From Escherichia phage vB_EcoM_JNE01, in sequence record OR670491: a stretch of 64,000 nucleotides of DNA, one strand, 5' to 3'. How positions within the stretch are numbered: position 1 is the stretch's first letter; the number at the start of each line of letters is the position of its first letter. A model generated the notes under the pieces. The model was not told the DNA's origin, searched no databases, and worked only from the letters and a program-made list of their open reading frames with translations. Below, one piece after another: positions 9,317-39,655 of the stretch. The translations under genes and the position numbers were made by a program.

Positions 9317-9844
9317 ATGAGTGAAAAGGATTCTACTCAAACAAATAAACATTCAGTACACTTCAGTACTGGAAAGGATAACTGGACTACACCGAAGGAA
9401 TTATTTGAAGATTTGGATGAAATCTGGGGATTTACATTAGATGCTGCTTGTGTTAAAGAAACAGCACTATGTGAGAAGTACTTCACACCAGAAGATGATG
9501 CACTTTCACAGGATTGGGGTAAGAATATTTGCTGGCTCAACCCACCCTATAGTGATTTGAAAACTTGGTTATCTAAGGCGGTGGATGCATACAATAATGG
9601 TGCAACAGTAATGATACTAGTACCTTCAAGAACTGATACTATTGCATTTCAACAGTACGCAGCTAAGGTATGTGATTGTGTATGTTTCATTAAAGGTAGA
9701 TTGCGTTTTGGTATTCCTGAAGAACCTGAAAAGAAAACTGATTCAGCCCCCTTCCCTAGTTGCTTGATAGTACTGGATAAGTACTTGACTCCCGCTAAAC
9801 TAAATTATCTTAAATCTCTTGGATTGGTGATGAAGAACGTATGA
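9317..9844 (+). CDS. dam: DNA N6-adenine methyltransferase (phage Dam-like)
   Basis: Motifs FTLDAAC...WLNPPYS (NPPY catalytic motif) typical of phage Dam-family MTases. Confidence 0.7.
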   Translation: MSEKDSTQTNKHSVHFSTGKDNWTTPKELFEDLDEIWGFTLDAACVKETALCEKYFTPEDDALSQDWGKNICWLNPPYSDLKTWLSKAVDAYNNGATVMILVPSRTDTIAFQQYAAKVCDCVCFIKGRLRFGIPEEPEKKTDSAPFPSCLIVLDKYLTPAKLNYLKSLGLVMKNV

Positions 9845-10380
9845 AAGAAGCTTGTGTAGTAACATTCGGGAGAGTTAACCCGATACATAAAGGACATGGA
9901 TTAGTGTTTGAAAAGGCACAATCCCTACAAGAACAGTACGATGCGGACTTAAAGATCTTCCTAAGTACCAGTACTGATAATGTTAAAAACCCCTTACCAC
10001 CTGAATTGAAAATGTATTACACAGAGGGATTCTATCCTAATGTGCAAGAAAACATTTGCATTGAGGACAATTTATTTGATATAATGAGAGAGTTAGATGG
10101 GAAGTACATGGATGTGTTGTTCATCTGTGGCTCTGACAGGATTAACTCTTTCCAAAAAACTCTTGACAGCTACAATGGTAAGCTGTATAATTTCTGTAAT
10201 ATTAAGGCAATCCAAGCAGGTATTGACCGTAATGTTAGTAAGTACAGTTCAACACAAATGCGTTCCTTTGCTAAGAATGATGACTTCGAAAGCTTCAGTT
10301 CATTTTTACCAGGGAATGATATCGACTTAAAACAAAAACTCTTTGAAGATGTAGTAAAATACATGAGGAAAGAATTATGA
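9841..10380 (+). CDS. nucleotidyltransferase, NMN/NaMN adenylyltransferase-like
   Basis: GRVNPIHKGH (HxGH-type) and C-terminal SSTQMR (SxTxxR-like) motifs. Confidence 0.5.
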   Translation: MKEACVVTFGRVNPIHKGHGLVFEKAQSLQEQYDADLKIFLSTSTDNVKNPLPPELKMYYTEGFYPNVQENICIEDNLFDIMRELDGKYMDVLFICGSDRINSFQKTLDSYNGKLYNFCNIKAIQAGIDRNVSKYSSTQMRSFAKNDDFESFSSFLPGNDIDLKQKLFEDVVKYMRKEL

Positions 10381-15643: not shown

Positions 15644-15906
15644 TGGACATACAATCTCAATTACAATTGTTAACAGTACTTGAAGATGCGGCGTTTCAGG
15701 TTGTATCAGATATAAACAAATTACTCCCACCTGGAACTAAAGTACGTGTTAGAGAGAAGAGTTATAATACTTTCGAAATAGTTGAACAGGAATTAACTGT
15801 AAAAAAAGTAACTTATTATGACTCAACATTATGTATTCAGTGCGAAGATAAAGACGAGATGTTATTGTATTATAATCAACACACAGATATAGAGGTAATA
15901 TCATGA
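15643..15906 (+). CDS. hypothetical protein, dispersed small paralog family B
   Basis: ~85 aa; shares [LV]xD...G[KT]KVR core with 19148, 19398, 22117, 23118; start 15631 or 15643. Confidence 0.45.
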   Translation: MDIQSQLQLLTVLEDAAFQVVSDINKLLPPGTKVRVREKSYNTFEIVEQELTVKKVTYYDSTLCIQCEDKDEMLLYYNQHTDIEVIS

Positions 15907-17045
15907 CACATTTACAAATATACGAAGACCTAATGCACTTGTGCAAAACAAATGAAGCATTTTTTTATGTTGATCATAAAAGTCCGGCTGGTGGTACATA
16001 CCGTGTATTCACCTATCGTCTGGCTTCTTACACAGATTTCAGTCTTCCTAATGCACTGGAAACACGTGGTTCTATGTGGGAGATTGATGAAGATGGTGAA
16101 ATGATTCGTTGTGCTTCGCGTGCAATGAAAAAGTTCTTCAATGCTTACGAGAACCCATTTACAATGTTCAGTCCAGATACAACATGCGATGATATTGCTA
16201 TCGTGATGCCTAAACTGGATGGTTCAATCATCAGTACATTTCGTGATAATGATGGTGAAATCCGTTGTAAATCACATACTTCCTTGTCATCTGACCACGC
16301 AATTAACAGTACTCGACTATTGAACGAGAACCGTAATTTGTATGATTATGTAGACGAAGCTGAACGTTTAGGTTATACTGTGAATCTGGAGTATACAAGT
16401 CCAGAGTACCGAATAGTATTACCATATCAAGTAGAACAGTTATTTGTACTTAATGTTCGTCATCGATTGAGTGGTGAGTTGTTATGCGGTGCTGCATTAC
16501 GTTCGAAGTTCCCTTGTTTAGCACAATACAGTACTAACATGACAGGTAATAACATCTGTTCATCGTTTCCGGTGCGTTCTACCTTCAAAGAAAGTGTAGA
16601 TGAAGTACGTAAAATGGTTGACATTGAAGGATTTGTGTGTATCCTAAATAATGGTACAATGTGCAAATTGAAAACTGATTGGTATTGTTCATTGCATCTT
16701 ACAAAAGACAGTATTCTTATACCGTCACATTTGTACGAAACTGTACTCAATGATGCCAGTGATGACCTGAAACAATTGTTCAGTACTGATGAATATGCAA
16801 TGCAGTTGATATTAAAAATGGAACAGCGTGTCTTTTCATGCTATAATGCTTTACAAGATGAAGTAGAGAGCTTCGTCCAACAATACAAGCACTTGGAGCG
16901 AAAGGAATTCGCAATGAAGGTTCAGGAATGTCTTAAGAATGAACTGAACCGTCAGGGCTTGGCCTTTGCGTTGTACAACGGTAAAGTGGTGAATTATAAA
17001 GAAACTTTATTGAAGTACTACAAAGATGTACTAAAGGATTTTTAG
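15903..17045 (+). CDS. rnlA: RNA ligase 1 (T4 Rnl1-like)
   Basis: N-terminal FFY...SPAGGTYRVFTYRLASYTDF...ALETRG and ligase motif I KLDGS align with T4 Rnl1 as recalled. Confidence 0.85.
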   Translation: MTHLQIYEDLMHLCKTNEAFFYVDHKSPAGGTYRVFTYRLASYTDFSLPNALETRGSMWEIDEDGEMIRCASRAMKKFFNAYENPFTMFSPDTTCDDIAIVMPKLDGSIISTFRDNDGEIRCKSHTSLSSDHAINSTRLLNENRNLYDYVDEAERLGYTVNLEYTSPEYRIVLPYQVEQLFVLNVRHRLSGELLCGAALRSKFPCLAQYSTNMTGNNICSSFPVRSTFKESVDEVRKMVDIEGFVCILNNGTMCKLKTDWYCSLHLTKDSILIPSHLYETVLNDASDDLKQLFSTDEYAMQLILKMEQRVFSCYNALQDEVESFVQQYKHLERKEFAMKVQECLKNELNRQGLAFALYNGKVVNYKETLLKYYKDVLKDF

Positions 17046-18140: not shown

Positions 18141-19085
18141 ATGCCGACTATTACATTAACAGTTGGTTTGCCAGGATGTGGTAAAACTACATGGGCTGTT
18201 GAAGCAATTCGAAAAGCAAAGTCAAAGACTGTCAATATCAACCGTGATGACATTCGTGAGTCAATGGCTGGTTCACATGATGCATACAAATTCAACGACG
18301 CTAATGAGCAGTACGTAACTACATTACAGTTCAGTGCAGCCGATTTAGCAGCTAAGAATTCGTGGAACATCATCGTTTCTGACACGAACCTTAAACAAGG
18401 TTTTCGTGATAAATGGAAAATGTGGGCTTCAGACAATGGGTACGACTACAAAGAAAAAGACTTCTATCAGGATTTTGAACCTAAAGAAGACCGTGGTGCT
18501 GATGTACATGAATTCTTTAAGATTAAAGAATATGTAAAACTTTGTAAGACTCGTAACCTAAAACGCGAACGTTCAGTACAGGACAGTATCATTGATACTA
18601 TGGCACATACGTACTATTACAGTAAAATGCGTATGTTCAATGCGTATGAGCTTCAGAATTATGACTCATTACCGCATTGTATTATTGTTGATATCGATGG
18701 TACACTAGCTCATAAAGGGGGTCGTAATCCATTCGATGAAAGTACTGTCCTACAGGATACTCCAGACGAGGAAGTAATTCTTTCAGTAATTGCAGAAGCA
18801 CAGTTCTTTAAACGCAAGATTATCGTTATGTCCGGCAGGACTGAAGGGTGCAGAGAAGATACTGAGAAGTGGTTACTGACTTGGGGTGTGCCTTATGATG
18901 AACTATATATGCGAGCAATTGATGATAAACGTCCTGATGATGTAGTTAAGTACGAGTTACTATCTAAACACGTTGCTGGGAAGTACACGGTCAAGAAGGT
19001 TTATGATGACCGTGAGGCAGTAACATTTATGTGGCGTAACCTAGTAGGATTGAAAGTATTCCAAGTCGAACCTGGATTATTTTGA
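18141..19085 (+). CDS. pseT: polynucleotide 5'-kinase/3'-phosphatase (T4 Pnk-like)
   Basis: Walker A GLPGCGKTT, NINRDD, HAD motif IVDIDGTLA; overall pattern like T4 PseT. Confidence 0.85.
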   Translation: MPTITLTVGLPGCGKTTWAVEAIRKAKSKTVNINRDDIRESMAGSHDAYKFNDANEQYVTTLQFSAADLAAKNSWNIIVSDTNLKQGFRDKWKMWASDNGYDYKEKDFYQDFEPKEDRGADVHEFFKIKEYVKLCKTRNLKRERSVQDSIIDTMAHTYYYSKMRMFNAYELQNYDSLPHCIIVDIDGTLAHKGGRNPFDESTVLQDTPDEEVILSVIAEAQFFKRKIIVMSGRTEGCREDTEKWLLTWGVPYDELYMRAIDDKRPDDVVKYELLSKHVAGKYTVKKVYDDREAVTFMWRNLVGLKVFQVEPGLF

Positions 19086-33063: not shown

Positions 33064-33972
33064 TTAAGCTGCACTTACAACATAAGTACATTCAGCAGTA
33101 TGTGAACCATCAACTGTAGTTACGATAACACTAGCATTACCTTCACCAACTAATGTCACTAAACCTGCATTTGATACAGTAAGAACTTCATCGTTAGTAC
33201 TTGACCATACAACATCTTTGTTAGCTGCATTTACTGGGAGTACAGTTGCAATTAGTGTTTCGGTTCCACCAATTGGGCCATTACTTGATGTTTTACTTAA
33301 AGTAACACCAGTAACTGGGGTATTGACAACATATGCACAAGATGCTACTTTAGAACCATCAACTGTTGTTGCGTTGACTGTTGCTGAACCGTTACCAACT
33401 AGAGTTACTAATCCAGAATTAGACACGGTGAGTACTGCGTCATTAGTACTTGACCATACAACTGATTTATTTGTTGCATTTTCAGGTAATACAGTTGCAA
33501 CTAGTGTTTCAGAACCACCAATCTGACCATTACTAGAATTTTTATTCAATGAAATACTTTCGACTGGAACAACAACTGCGACATACTTAGTCGCGTACTT
33601 ACCAGTTTGTACTTCATTGCCATTAGTAAGAATTACTTTATGGGTGAAAAATTTATATGCAAAACCGAGTGCTTCCATAGTTGTTGCATCATAAACTTTA
33701 ACAGCGAATTCATCACGACCAAGTGCACTTGCAATTTCTTGGGCAGTGGCTGATAAATCAAGTAGGTTACGATTTTTATCTCGACCAACCATTGATACTC
33801 TTTGATAAACAGTAGTTGAATCACTATCAACTAAGTCAAACATGCGAGTACTACACTCGTTGATAATGTATAGTTCTTTATCAATTTCTTGAGCACTGTG
33901 ATCAGTTGCTGCAAAAACACAGATACCACCAACGTTGAATGGCAATTCACCAAATTTAGCTATAGGCTTCAT
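33064..33972 (-). CDS. Ig-like (Big_2 repeat) domain protein, Hoc/decoration- or tail-like
   Basis: Only reverse-strand gene; two ~85-aa repeats ...GGSETL.ATVLP.NA.NK.VVWSSTND.VLTVSN.GLVTLVG.G.A.V..TTVDGS...; AGGAG RBS. Confidence 0.6.
   Translation of the reverse strand: MKPIAKFGELPFNVGGICVFAATDHSAQEIDKELYIINECSTRMFDLVDSDSTTVYQRVSMVGRDKNRNLLDLSATAQEIASALGRDEFAVKVYDATTMEALGFAYKFFTHKVILTNGNEVQTGKYATKYVAVVVPVESISLNKNSSNGQIGGSETLVATVLPENATNKSVVWSSTNDAVLTVSNSGLVTLVGNGSATVNATTVDGSKVASCAYVVNTPVTGVTLSKTSSNGPIGGTETLIATVLPVNAANKDVVWSSTNDEVLTVSNAGLVTLVGEGNASVIVTTVDGSHTAECTYVVSAA
33100..33620 (-). repeat. tandem duplication (~255 bp period) encoding two Ig-like domains
   Basis: Repeated peptide blocks in both the - frame and the + shadow frame. 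Confidence 0.5.
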
Positions 33973-34020: not shown

Positions 34021-34049
34021 TTGACAAACATCAACAATCCTAATACAAT
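34021..34049 (+). promoter_or_regulatory. sigma70-like promoter (TTGACA-17-TACAAT)
   Basis: Consensus -35 and near-consensus -10 with 17-nt spacer, ~30 nt upstream of ATG 34081. Confidence 0.6.
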
Positions 34050-34080: not shown

Positions 34081-34683
34081 ATGACTTGCATCATCGCTCA
34101 CGCAACACGTACTTCATCGTTTATTGCTGCTGACAAGTTAGGTAGCAATAACTTTACAAAAGCAATCCAATCTGAGCCAAAGATCTTTGAGAAAGAGTTC
34201 GATTCTCGTGTATTGGAAGAAGGGTTTATCCCAACAATTCACAAAGATACCATGACAATCGGATACACTACATCGTTCCGTATGGGACAGTTGTTGGAAC
34301 ATTGTCTTGTTCTACCAGAGAAGCAACCAACCCAATCGTTCAAGGAATATCTAGTACAATCAGTAGTTCCAGCTATCCGCACTTTATTCCGTGAAGAATG
34401 GGGTTCTCGTGCCGATAATCAAGATGTAGGTGGTGGTCAGTTCATCATCCTTCATAAGCACAAGATCTATGAAATTCATGAAGACTTCTGTGTACTTGAA
34501 CCAAAAAACAACATCAGTGCAGTTGGTAGTGGTGCATATCATGCAATTGCAGCAATGGCAGCTTATCTAACAGTTGAAACTGAAACTGAAGTTCCATTGG
34601 TTGACCGTATTGGTTCGATCTTTGATATCGTCAGCGATCATGTTGTTAGCGTGAGTTTTGAGCATGACATTCTAAAATACTAA
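34081..34683 (+). CDS. HslV/proteasome-beta-like Ntn hydrolase (putative)
   Basis: Thr at position 2 (MTCIIA...) and ...ISAVGSGAYHAIAAMAAYL resembling HslV GSGG.YA.AAA.AL region. Confidence 0.45.
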   Translation: MTCIIAHATRTSSFIAADKLGSNNFTKAIQSEPKIFEKEFDSRVLEEGFIPTIHKDTMTIGYTTSFRMGQLLEHCLVLPEKQPTQSFKEYLVQSVVPAIRTLFREEWGSRADNQDVGGGQFIILHKHKIYEIHEDFCVLEPKNNISAVGSGAYHAIAAMAAYLTVETETEVPLVDRIGSIFDIVSDHVVSVSFEHDILKY

Positions 34684-34711
34684 TAGGTGCACTAATATAA
34701 TAAGAGAGTAC

Positions 34712-34906
34712 ATGATGACATGGGATATTCTTGACATTGTTTTGCAGTTCTTGATGATTTTGATTGCAGTTGTTTGGTACAATCACATTGTTCTGTTATA
34801 TAATGAAGTTCGTAGTACTAAAGCAGATAAACATTTGACGTACCACATTTCAATCATCGTAAGTGCTTCAATTGTTCTTCTAACGAACTATTTGTTTGCA
34901 CGTTGA
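34712..34906 (+). CDS. small membrane protein (64 aa)
   Basis: Two hydrophobic segments. Confidence 0.45.
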   Translation: MMTWDILDIVLQFLMILIAVVWYNHIVLLYNEVRSTKADKHLTYHISIIVSASIVLLTNYLFAR

Positions 34907-34917
34907 AAGGTCAACAT

Positions 34918-35670
34918 ATGTCTACACAATCCTTTTTAGAAAAAGCAGGGGAAAAACGTTTACTGATAATCAGCGGGGCTGGGTTATCGGTTGAAAGTGG
35001 GATGGAGCCATTTCGTTTTGATGATGGCTTATGGGATAACTTTCAAATCAATGACGTGTGTAATATTGCACGTCTTAGTTCCAAATATCATATAGTACAT
35101 GCATTCTATAATACTCTAAGAGTAAAATTAGGTTCGTGTGAACCAAATGCAATGCACTATTACATCAAATCATTAGAGGATCAGTACAAAGATAATTTCT
35201 TACACATGACCTCCAATATGGATGATTTGTACACTCGAATCGGTGGAACCGAGTTGAAGCTTCATGGTAATCTACGAGAAGTTATTAAAAACTACTCAAT
35301 CAATAGTGATGACTATGAAGTAATTGACTGTGGTTATGAACCGTTCATTCCAGAGACTGATGTGTTCTCTAAACCAAATGTTGTTATGATTGGTGAATAT
35401 CATCGTTATGTGGATGGGAACCGTCTTCCTATCTACGAAGAACGAAATGAAGTGTTGCGTAGTCTTACTGAAAATGATACAGTAATTGTTATTGGGAGCA
35501 GTGATACAGTACTGGTATGGTCCAGACTAGCTGGGGCGTTACCTTGTTATAGTGTTACTGTTAACGTCAGAAAGAATGACAATGACTTCCTATTCAATGA
35601 ACGTATCATTAAGCCAGCAACTAAAGCAATTCCAGTACTGGAGCCAATCATTAAGGAAAGAATGAAATGA
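34918..35670 (+). CDS. Sir2-family protein (NAD+-dependent deacylase/ADP-ribosyltransferase/NADase-like), no Zn-ribbon module
   Basis: GAGLSVESGMEPFRFDDGLW, TSNMDDLYTRIGG, KLHGNL, VIVIGSSDTVL match sirtuin motifs; ATG 34918 after GAAAGG. Confidence 0.65.
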   Translation: MSTQSFLEKAGEKRLLIISGAGLSVESGMEPFRFDDGLWDNFQINDVCNIARLSSKYHIVHAFYNTLRVKLGSCEPNAMHYYIKSLEDQYKDNFLHMTSNMDDLYTRIGGTELKLHGNLREVIKNYSINSDDYEVIDCGYEPFIPETDVFSKPNVVMIGEYHRYVDGNRLPIYEERNEVLRSLTENDTVIVIGSSDTVLVWSRLAGALPCYSVTVNVRKNDNDFLFNERIIKPATKAIPVLEPIIKERMK

Positions 35671-36224
35671 GTTTGAGAGAAGTACCACTCGGAGAATTTG
35701 GCAAACAAGCAAACTTTGTATTCTGTTACTTCTTTGCACGAAATTGTAATCCATATGAGAATTACGAGTTGAATGATATTCCAGTAGTTAATCTGGTACT
35801 CCTTCAACTCCGTTGGGATGGGTTGATGGGTGGATGTGGAGGAACAGTTGAAGATTCTGATACTTCACTTGAAGCTGCGTTGAAGCGTGAAATCCAAGAA
35901 GAAATGGATTATAATATTTCCATTGAACAGTTGAAACCTCTAAAGACGTTTGAATTGTTCCCTGGTGCTAACACTCATAGCTTCAGTTATGAAGTCACAT
36001 ATGATGAGTTGAAAGCGATTCGTGACGGGTACAGTACTGCTAAACATGCCAGTGCTGAAGTAGCGGGTGTAAATTTATGTCACATTTCTCGATATTCTAA
36101 GGGAAAAAATCGAGAAGCAGGATATAATAATCTCATGACACAAAACTTCATTGGAACAGCTAAGGAAGAATTGCAGTACTTAGTTGAAAATGAAAACTTA
36201 CTTATCAGTTACTTACAAGGGTAG
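35667..36224 (+). CDS. Nudix-like hydrolase (putative, divergent Nudix box)
   Basis: GGCGGTVEDSDTSLEAALKREIQEEMDY resembles GX5EX7REUXEEXGU with altered spacing. Confidence 0.4.
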   Translation: MSLREVPLGEFGKQANFVFCYFFARNCNPYENYELNDIPVVNLVLLQLRWDGLMGGCGGTVEDSDTSLEAALKREIQEEMDYNISIEQLKPLKTFELFPGANTHSFSYEVTYDELKAIRDGYSTAKHASAEVAGVNLCHISRYSKGKNREAGYNNLMTQNFIGTAKEELQYLVENENLLISYLQG

Positions 36225-36230
36225 AACAAA

Positions 36231-36551
36231 ATGTCATATGAAATGTTCCTCGATGATATTCGTAACCCAGGATACTATTATCCAGGTCGTTCGATGGTTG
36301 TATGTCGTGATTTTAAAAGTGCATGTAAACAAGTTGAAAAATTTGGTATTCCATCATTTATTTCATTCGATCACGATTTGGGCGACATGAATTATGATGA
36401 AAAAACTGGGTATTCCTTCGCTAAATGGATTATTGATTATATGTTTGAGCACGAAATCAAAACACCTTTTGCATTTCATGTTCACAGTAGTAATCCAGTT
36501 GGTAAAGTGAATATCGAACATTACCTTAACAATGCATTCGAAAATTTATGA
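36231..36551 (+). CDS. hypothetical protein (106 aa), conserved acidic motifs
   Basis: FLDDIR and SFDHDLG motifs; no family assigned. Confidence 0.45.
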   Translation: MSYEMFLDDIRNPGYYYPGRSMVVCRDFKSACKQVEKFGIPSFISFDHDLGDMNYDEKTGYSFAKWIIDYMFEHEIKTPFAFHVHSSNPVGKVNIEHYLNNAFENL

Positions 36552-36838
36552 AACAGTTAATTATAAGTGCATTAATAACAATAGCGTTATGTACGGTGTG
36601 TATTCTAATTTTGAATTATATTGACCAAAATTCAAAACAGAATGAACACTTTCAGTCCGCTGTAGTAATTTCATTAGGTCAGTGCAGTAAAAGTGCATGT
36701 TCTTTCACTTACAAAACCGAAGATGGTTATGTAATGTCTGGACTGTCAGAAAAACCAGTATCGATTGGTCAGATTGTTTACCAAAAGTGCTGGGAAACTA
36801 AAGTGCGAGGTCATGCTTGTAGTGATTTCGTGCAATAA
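36548..36838 (+). CDS. secreted/membrane Cys-containing protein (96 aa)
   Basis: N-terminal hydrophobic segment. Confidence 0.45.
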   Translation: MKQLIISALITIALCTVCILILNYIDQNSKQNEHFQSAVVISLGQCSKSACSFTYKTEDGYVMSGLSEKPVSIGQIVYQKCWETKVRGHACSDFVQ

Positions 36839-36888
36839 GTAATCTACCAATCGAGTACAAGGATGTACTCATAACTCAAGGATGTTTT

Positions 36889-38328
36889 ATGAAAAAATAT
36901 ACAATTGACACAAACGTACTACTATCTGATCCAAATGCTACCATTGCTTTTGATGGAGCAGCTATCATTCTACCGTTCACAGTACTTGAAGAATTGGATT
37001 CAATCAAAAGTCGTAATGTGGATGTTTCCCGTGATGCTCGTGTTGCAATCCGTAATATTGAAGCAATCCTTTCTGATGCATCACATGAAGAAATTAGTAG
37101 TACTGGTGTTAATATTGCTGATGTTCATACTAATATGAGTCCTGAAAGCAAATTGTTTGTTATTACAAGCGAAGAAGCTGAAGCACTAATTCGCACTGCT
37201 GGTAACGAAGAGAAAGTTCAAACTCTTCTAAAAAGCACAGTACCAGATGATAAAATCATTTTAGTAGCATTAGCAACTGATTCAGTACTGGTTACCCGTG
37301 ATATCAATATGCGTATCAAGGCTCTAAGCTACGGGGTGGAAGTTCAAGATTACCGTCATGATATCGTGATTGGTGATAGTGATTTGATTCACATTGGTCA
37401 ACATCACCTTGACCTACATTTCTGGGATGTGTATAGTAATCTGACTGATGTATCTATTCAGTCTGAACAAGTTGGTCGTCGTTTGTACCACTACATTCCA
37501 AAAAGCTTGATTGAACATATCATGCCACAAAATATTTGCATCGGTGATTACCTATATGATAATGCTGATGTTCTATTTGTGTACGAAGGCCAATCTGCAA
37601 TTGAAGAAGATGATGGTACTTTAACACCAGAAGATATTCTTGTATTCCAAGATATTGGACAATCTGTTGCTCTACGTGCTAAAGTGTGGGATATTAAGGC
37701 TAAGAATATTCAACAAGCACTAGCAATCAACAGTATCCTAGATCCTGATGTTCATCTAACAGTACTGTTGGGTTCCGCAGGTACTGGTAAAACGCTAATT
37801 ACCATTGCGACTGCACTTGAATTGGTTCTTGAGAAGAAGAAATATGACCGTATTATGTTCTCAAAACCACAAGATTCACAATGGGCCGAAATCGGTTTCT
37901 TACCAGGCACTGAAATGGAAAAAATGCTACCACATTGTGGCCCTGCATTGGATGCTTTGGAATTCTTACATAAAGATGATGCATCACCACAAGGTAGTAT
38001 TGAGGAAATAATCAAGCGTAATGTTATTCAGTTCAAAGCATTGAACTTCATTCGCGGTCGTTCATTTACCAACACTATTCTGGTTGTGGATGAGTTTCAG
38101 AACATCACACCTGCTCAGGCTAAGACAATCCTTACCCGTGCTGGCATGAACTGCAAAGTGATTATTCTTGGGAACTTGGCACAGATTGATAGTAAATTCA
38201 TTAGCCCAGTTAACAGCGGCTTAACATATGTTGTTGAGAAATTTAAAAACTGGGATGGTTGTCGAGTAATCGAACTCGAAGGTGTTGTTCGTTCACCACT
38301 GGCAGAATTTGCTGAAGAAAATATGTAA
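36889..38328 (+). CDS. phoH: PhoH-like ATPase with N-terminal PIN domain
   Basis: PIN-like YTIDTNVLLSD...; Walker A LLGSAGTGKTLITIA; Walker B-like ILVVDEFQN. Confidence 0.8.
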   Translation: MKKYTIDTNVLLSDPNATIAFDGAAIILPFTVLEELDSIKSRNVDVSRDARVAIRNIEAILSDASHEEISSTGVNIADVHTNMSPESKLFVITSEEAEALIRTAGNEEKVQTLLKSTVPDDKIILVALATDSVLVTRDINMRIKALSYGVEVQDYRHDIVIGDSDLIHIGQHHLDLHFWDVYSNLTDVSIQSEQVGRRLYHYIPKSLIEHIMPQNICIGDYLYDNADVLFVYEGQSAIEEDDGTLTPEDILVFQDIGQSVALRAKVWDIKAKNIQQALAINSILDPDVHLTVLLGSAGTGKTLITIATALELVLEKKKYDRIMFSKPQDSQWAEIGFLPGTEMEKMLPHCGPALDALEFLHKDDASPQGSIEEIIKRNVIQFKALNFIRGRSFTNTILVVDEFQNITPAQAKTILTRAGMNCKVIILGNLAQIDSKFISPVNSGLTYVVEKFKNWDGCRVIELEGVVRSPLAEFAEENM

Positions 38329-38374: not shown

Positions 38375-39655
38375 GTGATAATAAAACATCTGTATTATAT
38401 TGACTCAAATTTCAGAAAATACGATAAAGTTTCAAAACTTAATCCAAAATACATTACAGATGTTATTTTCCAAGAAAAATACAACATAGATCGAAACAGT
38501 ACTGAAATACTACAGGATGATATATCATCATATACACCAAACGTAACGGGTTTTTATTATATAAAATACCCAACTGGTGTTAGAAAAGTTTATGCTTTAA
38601 AATGTAATGAGTGCTCTAAAAACTCAGTATTACATGGCGAAGGAATATATCTGGTTCACTTGTCACACATCAAAAACGGAATCATTTCGTGTGGGTGTGC
38701 AAAACGCACAAACTGGACACCATATCAATATTACATAAAAATGATATCAGAATGTAAAAATCGTAATTGCATTTTTTTAGGTTACGATAAAAAACACTTA
38801 CGTTTATATTGTCTCGAACATGGTTACTGGAATACCACATCCAAAGCACACTTCTTTAATGGGAAAGGATGTAGTAAATGTGGGGACACCAATTCAAGAG
38901 TGTTGAGAACAAAAGACAGTTATTTTCATATATCTAAATTTAAAATCTTAAATGCGTATAATTATCGACGTTCCGACAAGATTGATAGTAGTGGTCGCTT
39001 GCGTTATTGGGAATATATGTGTAAGAAATGTTCACATGATGAGTATGTTAGGCTCGGTTTGTGTAATGGGATTTTTACATCATTTAATAGTGATTTAGTA
39101 AAGGGTAAGAAATCATGTCGTTGTTCAAGTAACTATAGATGGACAGAAAAACAGCGTGAATATCAAATCACCAAACTCCTAAAATCCAATTTTCCTCACA
39201 TTAGCTTTAAAGGTTGGGTAAATAGTTATAAAAATATCCATAGTAAGGCGATTTTAAATTGTAATATTCATAATAATTATACGCAAAAAGTAAACTACAT
39301 ACTTAATAATAATTGTGGTTGTCCACAATGTGCTGGGATGACACAGACAGAATGTTATATAAATGTAATATATGATGTGTTTCCAATTGCTATAAAATAT
39401 GGAATTTCAACACATACAAAAAACCGCGTTTGTAGTCAAAATAATAAATCACCATTTGACGTTATTAATCATGGAATTTGGGATTTTGAAAATCCATATT
39501 TATGCAAAATGGCAGAAAATGAATGCAAGCGAACGGTAAGTCGTGTTCTATCAGAACGCGAGCTACCTGACGGATTTACTGAAACCGCTGAAGTGAAATA
39601 TATTGATGATATAATTAAAATATATGAAAGCTGGGGTGGTATCAAACGAAAATAG
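38375..39655 (+). CDS. Cys-rich multi-CxxC protein (426 aa), very AT-rich gene
   Basis: Repeated CxxC/CxC motifs (CNEC, CGC, CSKCGD, CKKCSHDE, CRCSS, CGCPQC); lower GC than flanks. Confidence 0.5.
   Translation: MIIKHLYYIDSNFRKYDKVSKLNPKYITDVIFQEKYNIDRNSTEILQDDISSYTPNVTGFYYIKYPTGVRKVYALKCNECSKNSVLHGEGIYLVHLSHIKNGIISCGCAKRTNWTPYQYYIKMISECKNRNCIFLGYDKKHLRLYCLEHGYWNTTSKAHFFNGKGCSKCGDTNSRVLRTKDSYFHISKFKILNAYNYRRSDKIDSSGRLRYWEYMCKKCSHDEYVRLGLCNGIFTSFNSDLVKGKKSCRCSSNYRWTEKQREYQITKLLKSNFPHISFKGWVNSYKNIHSKAILNCNIHNNYTQKVNYILNNNCGCPQCAGMTQTECYINVIYDVFPIAIKYGISTHTKNRVCSQNNKSPFDVINHGIWDFENPYLCKMAENECKRTVSRVLSERELPDGFTETAEVKYIDDIIKIYESWGGIKRK

What the first reader, a model, noticed from the sequence alone, without database searches (positions are those of the whole stretch)
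34918..36551. Sir2-like / Nudix-like / unknown three-gene operon: candidate NAD+ and ADP-ribose handling module
A Sir2-family protein with sirtuin NAD-binding and catalytic motifs but no zinc-ribbon is translationally coupled to a divergent Nudix-box protein and a 106-aa protein with acidic FLDD / SFDHDLG motifs. Sir2 domains consume NAD+, and Nudix enzymes commonly hydrolyse ADP-ribose or related nucleotides. In bacterial immunity, Sir2-domain NADases are defence effectors and phages are known to carry NAD+-restoring or ADP-ribose-processing counter-measures. A phage-borne Sir2+Nudix pair could therefore be a counter-defence or host-takeover module (inference). An NMNAT-like adenylyltransferase elsewhere in the window (9841-10380) could feed the same metabolite pool.
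Basis: partly seen in the sequence, partly recalled or inferred. Interest (0 to 1): 0.7.

Follow-up and report, generated by a model that had tools for sequence, protein, structure and literature searches.

The report
Phage sirtuin–Nudix–cREC NAD-dependent module
A jumbo E. coli phage carries three tightly linked genes (a zinc-less sirtuin, a NUDT16-type Nudix hydrolase and a cREC phosphoesterase) that match a phage module already predicted from genome comparisons to use NAD+ for repairing cut RNA, though nobody has tested this in the laboratory.

Summary
That third protein is a cREC "cyclic-phosphate processing receiver" domain (6.4e-23).

The window is a 121Q/PBECO4-type jumbo coliphage, 99% identical to phage Turkey5. 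The block Sir2–Nudix–cREC–small membrane protein–PIN/PhoH is conserved across Rak2-like jumbo phages. Nudix and cREC are fused in Serratia phage BF.

Iyer et al. 2022 (PMC9503650) already described this neighbourhood. They predicted a sirtuin-centred, NAD+-using RNA-repair system that works like Tpt1/KptA. I found no experimental test of it.

I confirmed independent support: rV5-like phages have RNA ligase→cREC→Sir2, and T5-like phages have Sir2 next to an "RNA repair protein".

This window's version lacks the 2H/Acb1-like gene and the Nampt+NadM salvage pair that flank the module in relatives.

Small additions here:
- Zinc-ribbon loss is shared by all ten phage copies examined across five lineages.
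- The Nudix box is NUDT16-type.
- Nudix and cREC are split by a single in-frame TAG.

Verdict: low novelty, function unproven. RNA-end/ADP-ribose-phosphate processing is the likeliest reading (about 0.4).

The parts
34021..34049 (+). Best sigma-70-like promoter match (TTGACA-17-TACAAT, 11 of 12) upstream of the co-directional gene run that contains the module
   Evidence: The total number of promoter-like sites in the region is not above chance (21 against 19.0 +/- 3.7), so this is a candidate only. No convincing terminator was found before PhoH.
34081..34683 (+). HslV-like (Ntn-hydrolase) peptidase; a conserved upstream neighbour, probably in the same transcript, with no shown role in the module
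   Evidence: phrog_1040, 2.6e-21; weak NCBIfam HslV hits. Homologues lie just upstream of Sir2 in 121Q, fEgEco12 and L018, and within the block in Munch.
34712..34906 (+). 64-aa hydrophobic small ORF immediately upstream of Sir2
   Evidence: hydropathy about 2.1. Annotated as a CDS in Turkey5. A 66-aa ORF occupies the same position in L018.
34918..35670 (+). Sir2-family sirtuin of the phage-specific, zinc-ribbon-less clade; predicted active NAD+-dependent transferase
   Evidence: - Pfam SIR2, 1.3e-19; phrog_2162, 4.6e-74.
- PDB sequence match to E. coli CobB, 1.7e-20.
- AlphaFold2 pLDDT 86.9.
- Foldseek top hits are CobB, Sir2Af and SIRT5, E about 1e-15, TM 0.75-0.83.
- Invariant G20, G22, N100, D102, D103, H116, G117, G193, S194, S195, N216.
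- No CxxC motif.
35667..36224 (+). NUDT16/X29-type Nudix hydrolase with an intact REUXEE catalytic core
   Evidence: - Pfam Nudt16-like, 1.7e-19, and NUDIX, 1.8e-6; phrog_9999, 5.8e-83.
- PDB sequence hits to human NUDT16 and Xenopus X29, 6e-12.
- Invariant E62, R74, E75, E78, E79 in 15 homologues.
- Overlaps the Sir2 stop by ATGA.
36231..36551 (+). cREC: a divergent, four-stranded receiver-like domain, predicted to be a metal-independent (cyclic) phosphoesterase
   Evidence: - Pfam cREC_REC, 6.4e-23.
- AlphaFold2 pLDDT 96.
- No solved relative by sequence.
- Invariant D8, D9, R11, D47, H48, D49, H85, S86, N88.
- In frame with Nudix and fused to it in Serratia phage BF.
36548..36838 (+). 96-aa single-pass, Cys-rich membrane protein, coupled to cREC by an ATGA overlap
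   Evidence: phrog_14661, 1.6e-27. Homologues sit at the same position in 121Q, fEgEco12, RaK2, BF and Munch. It is absent from L019, and L018 has a Bax1-I membrane protein nearby instead.
36889..38328 (+). PIN_4 + PhoH (PhoH2-type) predicted RNase/ATPase; always the next large gene after the module
   Evidence: Pfam PhoH, 2e-44, and PIN_4, 1.7e-20. The sequence shows the IDTN / LEELD / DDK / TRD acidic PIN residues and GSAGTGKT / VVDEFQ Walker motifs. It lies downstream of cREC in all nine Rak2-like-type loci examined, including the window.
15903..17045 (+). T4 Rnl1-type RNA ligase; distal, a possible functional partner
   Evidence: Pfam RNA_lig_T4_1, 4e-16, and T4_Rnl1_C, 9.4e-15. It is 18 kb from the module, so the linkage is inferred only.
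18141..19085 (+). T4 Pnkp-type polynucleotide kinase / HAD phosphatase; distal, a possible functional partner
   Evidence: Pfam HAD_PNKP, 1.4e-42, and AAA_33, 8.8e-13.

Best explanation
The trio is the 121Q/PBECO4-lineage copy of a phage module that spends NAD+ to process phosphate-bearing RNA ends and then disposes of the resulting ADP-ribose-phosphate by-products.

**Proposed steps (all inferred; none shown biochemically)**
1. Host metal-independent ribonucleases cut tRNA or mRNA, leaving 2',3'-cyclic phosphate ends.
2. cREC (helped by a 2H enzyme in relatives) opens the cyclic phosphate.
3. After 5' phosphorylation and sealing by the phage's own Pnkp and Rnl1, or directly at a terminal phosphate, the sirtuin acts. 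It transfers ADP-ribose from NAD+ onto the 2'-phosphate. Its conserved His then promotes attack by the ribose 2''-OH. [quoted passage not shown]
4. cREC linearises that cyclic phosphate.
5. The NUDT16-type Nudix cleaves the ADP-ribose pyrophosphate, either in the free product or in stalled RNA-phospho-ADP-ribose adducts, releasing AMP.
6. The adjacent PIN/PhoH RNase-ATPase acts on the same RNA pool.

**What is shown**
- Domain identities, intact catalytic motifs and predicted folds.
- Gene order and its conservation.
- The Nudix-cREC fusion.
- The recurrent Sir2-cREC-RNA ligase linkage.
For: 1. **All three enzymes look catalytically competent.** Their active-site residues are invariant.
2. **Nudix and cREC are one polypeptide in Serratia phage BF.** That fusion aligns collinearly to the two window ORFs in a single tblastn HSP (48.6% identity over 292 aa). 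The window ORFs are split by a single in-frame TAG.
3. **The gene order is conserved.** Sir2 -> Nudix -> cREC -> PIN/PhoH holds in nine loci, including the window, down to 43% Sir2 identity.
4. **Independent lineages link the same Sir2 clade to RNA-end repair genes.**
   - rV5-like Mangalyan and Mydo have RNA ligase -> cREC (2e-7, 1.3e-8) -> Sir2. A PNK-like kinase, a metallophosphatase and a tRNA array lie nearby.
   - T5-like ESCO30 has Sir2 one small ORF away from an 'RNA repair protein'.
5. **cREC recurs beside RNA-end enzymes in unrelated phage contigs.** Neighbours include CCA-adding enzymes, RtcB and 2H enzymes.
6. **The Nudix belongs to the NUDT16/X29 family**. NUDT16 cleaves ADP-ribose still attached to a macromolecule (PMC8883491).
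7. **The window encodes Rnl1 and Pnkp**.
8. **The reading matches the published contextual prediction** (PMC9503650 section 3.7.3; PMC7824862). The Tpt1 two-step mechanism it parallels is established (PMC6573784).
Against: - I found no biochemical or genetic test of any component. The 2022 paper itself calls cREC uncharacterised.
- The Sir2 is closest in sequence and fold to bona fide protein deacylases, CobB and SIRT5. No sirtuin is known to act on RNA.
- All three proteins are acidic, pI 4.8-5.4, which is not what one expects of RNA-binding enzymes.
- Rak2-like genomes are broadly syntenic, so gene-order conservation within that group is weak evidence of function.
- In this window Rnl1 and Pnkp are 16-19 kb away. 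T4-type Pnkp can already heal 2',3'-cyclic ends, which would make the pathway redundant.
- PIN nucleases are metal-dependent and do not make cyclic phosphates.
- In relatives the nearest neighbours are NAD+ salvage genes and an Acb1-family (anti-CBASS) 2H gene. These fit a counter-defence island equally well.
Confidence: 0.4

Rival explanations
1. Protein deacylation with by-product clearance. The sirtuin is a CobB-like lysine deacylase that reprogrammes host or phage proteins early in infection. The Nudix and cREC then destroy the sirtuin-specific metabolite 2'/3'-O-acyl-ADP-ribose, by pyrophosphate cleavage and then ester or phosphate removal.
For: - The best sequence and structure matches are E. 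coli CobB, archaeal Sir2 and SIRT5.
- Every residue needed for deacylation is conserved.
- Y64 and R68, invariant in the clade, lie in the helix where CobB and SIRT5 carry the Y-x-x-R acyl-carboxylate site.
- GenBank and NCBIfam name the protein a deacylase.
- Acidic enzymes suit protein or small-molecule substrates.
- From general knowledge, not tested here: Nudix hydrolases such as Ysa1 and NUDT5 hydrolyse O-acetyl-ADP-ribose.
Against: - NCBIfam scores are far below the CobB equivalog cut-offs (83-87 bits against 243-320).
- CobB R95 aligns with Leu in the phage protein, so the Arg is shifted by one residue.
- The zinc ribbon that helps form the peptide cleft has lost its ligands in all ten phage copies examined.
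- This reading does not explain the recurrent Sir2-cREC-RNA ligase and Sir2-'RNA repair protein' linkages.
- It does not explain cREC's association with RtcB and CCA-adding enzymes.
Confidence: 0.2
2. Counter-defence. The block is part of an anti-immunity island. Nudix-cREC degrade NAD+-derived or cyclic-phosphate immune messengers, or toxic ADP-ribose derivatives, produced by TIR, Sir2 or CD-NTase defence systems. The sirtuin either consumes or converts such molecules, or modifies a defence protein.
For: - In every non-Asteriusvirus relative examined, the trio follows NadM-Nudix + Nampt. That pair is NARP2, shown experimentally to defeat NAD+-depleting defences (bioRxiv 10.1101/2024.02.11.579819).
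- In BF and L019 the gene just upstream of Sir2 is an Acb1-family 2H phosphodiesterase (Pfam Acb1, 3.6e-15). Its homologue occupies the same position in Munch.
- cREC lies beside NAD salvage genes in L011.
- The 2021 paper also proposes that cREC and Nudix degrade cyclic ADP-ribose-type signals.
- The proteins are acidic, which suits small-molecule substrates.
Against: - The window's lineage has lost Nampt, NadM-Nudix and the 2H gene yet keeps the trio, so the trio does not depend on them.
- A NAD+-consuming sirtuin would aggravate NAD+ depletion rather than counter it.
- None of the three proteins hit a PADLOC model, apart from one weak generic Nudix match.
- I found no report of cREC, a NUDT16-like Nudix or a phage sirtuin acting as an anti-defence protein.
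- The RNA ligase linkage in rV5-like phages is left unexplained.
Confidence: 0.2
3. RNA 5'-end remodelling for host RNA turnover. The NUDT16-like Nudix decaps 5'-triphosphate, NAD-capped or ADP-ribose-capped RNAs to 5'-monophosphate. This licenses degradation by the PIN/PhoH RNase-helicase and by host RNase E. The sirtuin acts on NAD-capped RNA.
For: NUDT16 and X29 are RNA decapping enzymes by family name and solved structures. A PhoH2-type PIN/PhoH gene is invariably adjacent. Viral Nudix decapping enzymes that shut off host translation are known in eukaryotic viruses (cited in PMC9503650).
Against: There is no evidence that sirtuins use NAD-capped RNA. This reading gives no role to cREC, which is the protein fused to the Nudix. 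It does not explain the RNA ligase linkage.
Confidence: 0.08

Closest known systems
Sirtuin-centred predicted NAD+-utilising RNA-repair neighbourhood, type 1 (Serratia phage BF prototype; Iyer, Burroughs, Anantharaman, Aravind 2022, PMC9503650 section 3.7.3)
   Same: Orthologous Sir2 (45% identity), Nudix and cREC (49% over the fusion), membrane protein and PIN/PhoH (67%), in the same order.
   Different: - The window lacks the 2H/Acb1-like gene and the upstream Nampt + NadM-Nudix pair.
- Nudix and cREC are separate ORFs, split by an in-frame TAG.
- An HslV-like peptidase and a small hydrophobic ORF precede Sir2.
Tpt1/KptA, then 2H cyclic phosphodiesterase (Cpd1), then ADP-ribose-phosphate processing; the fungal-type tRNA 2'-phosphate removal pathway
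   Same: The proposed chemistry matches: a NAD+-dependent ADP-ribosyl transfer to a phosphate, a 1'',2''-cyclic phosphate product, a cyclic phosphodiesterase, and downstream ADP-ribose breakdown (PMC6573784; PMC9503650).
   Different: All folds are unrelated: sirtuin instead of the ART-fold Tpt1, REC-like cREC instead of 2H, Nudix instead of a macro domain. This is functional analogy only, and it is untested.
Class III sirtuin deacylases (E. coli CobB, human SIRT5)
   Same: Best sequence match (1.7e-20) and best structural match (E about 1e-15, TM 0.75-0.83), about 27% identity. NAD-binding motifs and the catalytic His are shared.
   Different: - No Cys4 zinc ribbon.
- TQNID is replaced by TSN(M/I/V)D.
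- CobB R95 aligns with Leu.
- A clade-specific INDVCNI motif is present.
- Scores fall far below the CobB equivalog cut-offs.
NUDT16 / X29 (U8 snoRNA-decapping, IDP-hydrolysing, de-ADP-ribosylating Nudix)
   Same: Pfam Nudt16-like hit above cut-off. PDB sequence hits at 6e-12 over residues 36-179. Identical unusual spacing upstream of REUXEE, plus the shared R-x-D-G motif.
   Different: About 30% identity or less. It is encoded by a phage, and in relatives it is fused to cREC. The substrate is unknown.
Two-component receiver (REC/CheY-like) domains
   Different: - Only four strands and four helices are predicted, and the alignment shows no strand-5 Lys.
- Two extra invariant histidines, H48 and H85.
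- 7-18% identity to receiver domains.
- No histidine kinase context (literature statement).
NARP2 (Nampt + Nmnat) phage NAD+ reconstitution, and Acb1 anti-CBASS phosphodiesterase
   Same: Both are encoded immediately upstream of the orthologous trio in BF and the metagenomic locus L019. Nampt and/or NadM-Nudix also lie upstream in Munch, RaK2 and L018.
   Different: Neither is in this window. No 121Q/PBECO4-type phage appears among the Nampt orthologues listed. The trio itself contains no NAD+-synthesising enzyme.
Defence-associated Sir2 NADases (ThsA, DSR1/2, SIR2-HerA, short pAgo partners)
   Same: Same superfamily, and NAD+ is the substrate.
   Different: - No PADLOC hit.
- None appears among the 50 structural matches listed.
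- No sensor or partner domain.
- Encoded by a lytic phage.

Membership tests
Sirtuin / Sir2 superfamily (Pfam PF02146) | Profile match above the curated threshold, and a Rossmann-type fold like solved sirtuins | tested here: met
   71.3 bits against a cut-off of 24. Foldseek to CobB: E 2.8e-15, TM 0.75-0.83.
Sirtuin / Sir2 superfamily (Pfam PF02146) | NAD-binding motifs (GAGxS, xxN-D, GSS, terminal N) and the catalytic His | tested here: met
   G20, G22, N100, D102, H116, G193, S194, S195 and N216 are invariant, and S24 is nearly invariant, in 18 homologues.
Sirtuin / Sir2 superfamily (Pfam PF02146) | Cys4 zinc-ribbon small domain | tested here: not met
   No CxxC motif, and 0-1 Cys in the HG-to-KPxVV segment, in all 10 phage members examined. 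Only the outlier P0019 keeps Cys4.
Class III deacylase CobB (NCBIfam equivalogs) | Score above the equivalog cut-off | tested here: not met
   83-87 bits against cut-offs of 243-320.
Defence Sir2 NADase systems (PADLOC models) | Match to a defence-system Sir2 model and the presence of partner genes | tested here: not met
   No PADLOC family for the Sir2. No HerA, SLOG, TIR or pAgo partner was identified among the annotated or profiled neighbours.
Nudix hydrolases, NUDT16-like subfamily (PF00293 / PF22327) | Profile match above threshold, and the catalytic REUXEE glutamates | tested here: met
   70.8 bits against 27, and 28.4 against 21.1. R74, E75, E78 and E79 are invariant.
Nudix hydrolases, NUDT16-like subfamily (PF00293 / PF22327) | Canonical 23-residue box GX5EX7REUXEEXGU | tested here: not met
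   Eleven residues separate E62 from R74, where the canonical box has seven. The final G of the box is D81 in the window protein, and this position varies among relatives. The spacing is the same as in human NUDT16.
cREC (PF20274, cyclic-phosphate processing receiver domain) | Profile match above threshold, a receiver-like fold, and a conserved Asp pair plus Asp after strand 3 | tested here: met
cREC (PF20274, cyclic-phosphate processing receiver domain) | Cyclic phosphodiesterase activity | not testable with these tools
   This is a prediction only. The defining papers state that the family is experimentally uncharacterised.
Iyer et al. 2022 sirtuin-centred RNA-repair neighbourhood, type 1 | [quoted passage not shown] | tested here: met
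   Sir2-Nudix-cREC-(TM)-PIN_4/PhoH at 34918-38328. Orthology to the BF genes was shown by tblastn.
Iyer et al. 2022 sirtuin-centred RNA-repair neighbourhood, type 1 | Linked 2H phosphoesterase | tested here: not met
   No tblastn match of the BF or Munch 2H proteins anywhere in the 64-kb window.
NARP2 NAD+ reconstitution pathway | Nampt together with an Nmnat | tested here: not met
   - No Nampt in the window.
- No 121Q/PBECO4-type phage among the Nampt orthologues listed.
- ORF 9841-10380 is NadM-related (phrog_395, 1.1e-24) but is not an orthologue (pairwise E 7e-4 over 54 aa).
Tpt1/KptA RNA 2'-phosphotransferase | ART-fold Tpt1 domain | tested here: not met
   The protein is a sirtuin. Only a functional analogy is proposed. 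The activity itself cannot be tested with these tools.

The most novel reading that the evidence does not exclude
The phage sirtuin clade is the first sirtuin family whose physiological substrate is nucleic acid rather than protein. It would be a Tpt1-analogous RNA 2'-phosphotransferase, or an enzyme acting on NAD-capped RNA.

cREC would be a new, receiver-derived class of cyclic phosphodiesterase. It could double as a destroyer of NAD+-derived or cyclic-phosphate immune messengers. The module would then link RNA repair and immune evasion in roughly 2% of deposited phage genomes, including T5-like phages.
Probability: 0.15. Interest if true: 0.8.

Novelty: already known. Interest (0 to 1): 0.35.

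Why it matters
Homologues of this sirtuin occur in 974 of 50,697 deposited phage records. They include T5-like, rV5-like and Rak2-like phages that are used as models and as therapy candidates. No function has been demonstrated for them.

If the RNA-repair prediction is right, three things follow:
- Sirtuin chemistry would extend to RNA.
- A receiver-like fold would gain an enzymatic role.
- There would be a second, NAD+-dependent route by which phages undo host ribotoxin damage.

If the counter-defence reading is right, it would add a new enzyme class to the anti-immunity repertoire.

For this window specifically, the finding adds little. It is an orthologue of an already described, computationally predicted module.

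Tried and rejected
1. **Defence-type Sir2 NADase.** Rejected. There is no PADLOC hit, and the listed structural neighbours are CobB, archaeal Sir2 and SIRT5.
2. **NAD+-restoring module (NARP1/2/3).** Rejected for this window. It has no Nampt. NARP3 is PnuC + NadR and is unrelated.
3. **Fusion partners of cREC.** The exhaustive HMMER search found 8,959 family representatives, mostly standalone. The ten longest of the top 150 had no Pfam partner domain. None of the 29 members of 170 aa or more resembled the module proteins beyond tandem cREC copies. This was uninformative.
4. **Word-indexed homology searches for Sir2 and Nudix.** They reached only 19 and 14 close relatives. IMG/VR gave only three loci.
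5. **Structured RNA or terminator between cREC's operon and PhoH.** The hairpin at about 36853-36870 is not significant (z = -0.61). There were no Rfam hits in 30-42 kb and no tRNAs in the window.
6. **Promoter scan.** Only one strong candidate, and the overall count is at chance level.
7. **Viral fold library.** It returned only other viral sirtuins.
8. **Literature searches.** Searches for experimental work on phage sirtuins, cREC, or phage Nudix enzymes acting on Thoeris signals found none.


Full report
**1. What is in the sequence**

The three ORFs are present as described: 34918-35670, 35667-36224 and 36231-36551, all on the + strand.
- The Sir2 ATG follows an AAAGG ribosome-binding-like sequence, directly after the stop of a 64-aa hydrophobic ORF.
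- The Sir2 stop and the Nudix start overlap as ATGA.
- The Nudix TAG stop (36222-36224) is followed six bases later by the third gene's ATG, and the two ORFs share a reading frame.
- The third gene overlaps a 96-aa membrane-protein gene by ATGA. After a 50-nt spacer comes a 479-aa gene.

The window is AT-rich (GC about 0.36) and coded almost entirely on one strand. This stretch is 99% identical to Escherichia phage Turkey5 (351 kb). It is about 78% identical to other 121Q/PBECO4-type jumbo coliphages. Turkey5 annotates the genes as NAD-dependent protein deacylase, NUDIX hydrolase and hypothetical protein.

**2. Identities**

Pfam gives three hits, all above curated cut-offs:

| ORF | Pfam family | E-value |
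|---|---|---|
| 34918-35670 | SIR2 | 1.3e-19 |
| 35667-36224 | Nudt16-like (plus NUDIX) | 1.7e-19 (1.8e-6) |
| 36231-36551 | cREC_REC, 'cyclic-phosphate processing receiver domain' | 6.4e-23 |

PHROGs agree. Its FLDD and SFDHDLG motifs are the family's invariant residues. The gene after the membrane protein combines PIN_4 and PhoH. Its acidic PIN residues and Walker motifs are readable in the sequence.

**3. The sirtuin**

- Eighteen homologues share invariant or near-invariant GAGxS, N100, D102, D103, H116-G117, KP-V, GSS and N216. The enzyme is probably active.
- The closest solved relatives by sequence are E. coli CobB (1.7e-20), archaeal Sir2 and SIRT5.
- A confident AlphaFold2 model (pLDDT 86.9) matches CobB best (E 2.8e-15, TM 0.75-0.83). 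No defence-type Sir2 is among the 50 hits listed.
- PADLOC gives no hit, and NCBIfam scores are far below the CobB equivalog cut-offs.
I find this holds for all ten phage copies examined across five lineages: Rak2-like, rV5-like, Mydo, T5-like and Vibrio nt-1. All lack CxxC pairs. They keep a 43-45-residue segment with a conserved (I/V)GY motif. Only one outlier homologue keeps Cys4.
- The 2022 survey does not contain the terms 'Zn-ribbon' or 'zinc ribbon'.

**4. The Nudix**

It matches human NUDT16 and Xenopus X29 at 6e-12 over residues 36-179.
- The catalytic R74-E75-x-x-E78-E79 and E62 are invariant in 15 homologues.
- The odd spacing before REUXEE is the same as in NUDT16. 'Divergent' here means NUDT16-type, not degenerate.
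- NUDT16 cleaves the pyrophosphate of ADP-ribose still attached to a protein, leaving phosphoribose (PMC8883491).

**5. cREC**

- It has no solved relative by sequence.
- The prediction shows four strands and four helices.
- The invariant residues D8/D9, D47-H48-D49 and H85-S86-x-N88 sit at the C-terminal ends of strands 1, 3 and 4. This is where receiver domains hold their acidic pocket. cREC has two additional invariant histidines, and the alignment shows no strand-5 Lys.
- The family is large: 8,959 cluster representatives at E <= 1e-3.

**6. Prior art**

Iyer et al. 2021 defined cREC in jumbo phages. They proposed that it processes cyclic ADP-ribose derivatives or 2',3'-cyclic phosphates, with Nudix finishing the breakdown (PMC7824862).

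Iyer et al. [quoted passage not shown] They proposed that the sirtuin acts like KptA on RNA 2'-phosphates (PMC9503650). They state that cREC is experimentally uncharacterised.

I found no later experimental study. NARP3 is an unrelated PnuC + NadR pair.

**7. Independent checks of the context**

*Rak2-like lineage*
- Serratia BF has NadM-Nudix, Nampt, a 148-aa 2H protein, Sir2, a 302-aa Nudix-cREC fusion, a membrane protein and PIN/PhoH.
- The fusion aligns to the window's two ORFs in one tblastn HSP.
- The BF 2H protein belongs to Pfam Acb1, 3.6e-15.
- Munch, RaK2 and two metagenomic contigs with only 43-47% Sir2 identity keep the same order. Nampt and/or NadM-Nudix lie upstream in each.

*Other lineages*
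- A uniform local HMM scan shows that in rV5-like Mangalyan and in Mydo the small ORF after the RNA ligase is a cREC (2e-7, 1.3e-8). The order there is RNA ligase -> cREC -> Sir2. A PNK-like kinase, a metallophosphatase and a tRNA array lie nearby.
- In a T5-like phage, Sir2 sits one small ORF from an 'RNA repair protein', and PhoH is nearby.
- Elsewhere cREC neighbours CCA-adding enzymes, RtcB, 2H proteins and NAD-salvage genes.

*This window*
- It has Rnl1 (15903-17045) and Pnkp (18141-19085).
- It has no 2H, Nampt or NadM-Nudix.
- Nampt orthologues exist in every other Rak2-like genus listed, but no 121Q/PBECO4-type phage appears among them.

**8. Mechanism**

The best-supported reading is the published one. 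The sirtuin spends NAD+ to ADP-ribosylate and remove an RNA phosphate, which is Tpt1-like chemistry (PMC6573784). cREC opens cyclic phosphates on the RNA and/or on the ADP-ribose>p product. The NUDT16-type Nudix cleaves the ADP-ribose pyrophosphate. PIN/PhoH, Rnl1 and Pnkp act on the same RNA.
- Shown: identities, intact active sites, the fusion, and the recurrent linkages.
- Inferred: every chemical step.

Counter-evidence:
- The sirtuin is CobB-like.
- All three proteins are acidic.
- Synteny within one phage group is weak evidence of function.
- In relatives the nearest neighbours are counter-defence-type genes: NARP2 and an Acb1-family gene.

My probabilities are:

| Reading | Probability |
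|---|---|
| RNA-end / ADP-ribose-phosphate processing | about 0.4 |
| Protein deacylation plus O-acyl-ADP-ribose clearance | 0.2 |
| Counter-defence metabolite or signal degradation | 0.2 |
| RNA 5'-end decapping and turnover | 0.08 |

**9.

ORF 9841-10380 has no Pfam hit at E <= 0.001, only sub-threshold NCBIfam hits and no PDB match. It does match phrog_3041 (3.7e-55) and the N-terminal half of phrog_395 (1.1e-24). The NadM-Nudix proteins of relatives fall in phrog_395 at 1e-75.

It is therefore a NadM-related standalone nucleotidyltransferase. 'NMNAT-like' is reasonable at family level. Specificity is unproven, and no Nampt partner is present.

**10. Verdict**

The module is an orthologue of an already described, computationally predicted phage system, here in a reduced form. 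Novelty is low. The underlying biology, the function of a sirtuin clade found in about 2% of deposited phage records, remains an open and directly testable question.

Noticed in passing
window 36216-36233: Nudix and cREC are in the same reading frame, separated only by TAG plus two codons (…LQG* NK MSYEMF…). The orthologues are a single fused ORF in Serratia phage BF. In Turkey5 the annotated Nudix CDS ends two codons earlier (552 nt against 558 nt). This looks like a recent fission of a fusion gene. Read-through was not examined.
   Followed up: partly
window 15903-17045 and 18141-19085: A T4 Rnl1-type RNA ligase and a T4 Pnkp-type kinase/HAD-phosphatase, a complete tRNA-healing and sealing pair. 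They lie 16-19 kb upstream of the module. A PTH2-like peptidyl-tRNA hydrolase, an ATP-dependent DNA ligase and two calcineurin-like phosphoesterases lie in between.
   Followed up: partly
window 34081-34906: An HslV-like Ntn-peptidase (N-terminus MTCII…) and a 64-aa hydrophobic ORF lie directly upstream of Sir2. The same pairing (peptidase, about 66-aa ORF, Sir2) recurs in the distant metagenomic locus L018. The peptidase also lies inside the block in Salmonella phage Munch.
   Followed up: partly
L008:2940-3386; L019:6542-6991; L009:2839-3285: The 148-149-aa 2H gene immediately upstream of Sir2 in relatives belongs to Pfam Acb1, the anti-CBASS phosphodiesterase family. The Pfam hit was seen for the BF and L019 copies. 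The Munch copy was identified only by homology to the BF protein. In GenBank the BF copy is annotated 'RNA ligase'. This raises a counter-defence reading that post-dates the 2022 contextual analysis.
   Followed up: partly
L016:5639-5989; L025:4010-4354; K64-1 (P0030); L021:6983-7369: cREC genes are mis-annotated in public records. They appear as 'RNA ligase 1 and tail attachment protein' (Mangalyan), 'hypothetical protein' (Mydo) and 'nudix hydrolase' (K64-1, Tunturi_5).
   Followed up: yes
L006:7998-8738 (Klebsiella phage RaK2); P0010, P0012: The RaK2-type Sir2 copies have GAG changed to GNG, and the PFR loop changed to PYH or LYD. These changes fall in the NAD-binding loop, so the copies may be catalytically altered or inactive, yet the downstream genes are retained.
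   Followed up: no
window 36548-36838: A Cys-rich (6 Cys), single-pass membrane protein is translationally coupled to cREC. It is conserved at this position in 121Q, fEgEco12, RaK2, BF and Munch. In L018 a Bax1-I family membrane protein sits between Nudix and cREC instead. The role of a membrane protein in this module is unexplained.
   Followed up: partly
window 33064-33972 (minus strand): The only minus-strand gene in the neighbourhood. It is a 302-aa protein with two tandem Ig-like repeats that matches PHROG families of Ig-domain structural and tail proteins. It sits between the protease genes and the module. The corresponding position in fEgEco12 has no such gene.
   Followed up: no
window 9317-10380: The NadM-related nucleotidyltransferase (9841-10380) overlaps the end of an ORF (9317-9844) that matches phrog_111, 'DNA methyltransferase' (1.7e-57), and more weakly a family annotated 'phosphoadenosine phosphosulfate reductase'. 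The pairing suggests a nucleotide- or DNA-modification role rather than NAD+ synthesis.
   Followed up: partly
window 38741-39655: The gene after PIN/PhoH carries two CapR-homology domain stretches (Pfam 1.8e-17) and many CxxC pairs. In the closest annotated relative, Turkey5, this position holds only short hypothetical ORFs.
   Followed up: no
window 36853-36888: A 7-bp hairpin (GAGTACA-AGGA-TGTACTC) and a duplicated CAAGGATGT lie in the spacer before PIN/PhoH. The fold is not more stable than shuffled sequence (z = -0.61).
   Followed up: yes
L007:7944-8804: An IMG/VR contig ORF of 286 aa matches Nampt (4.5e-38) and weakly the Sir2 profile (3e-6). This is either a chance motif match or a Nampt-sirtuin chimera.
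   Followed up: no
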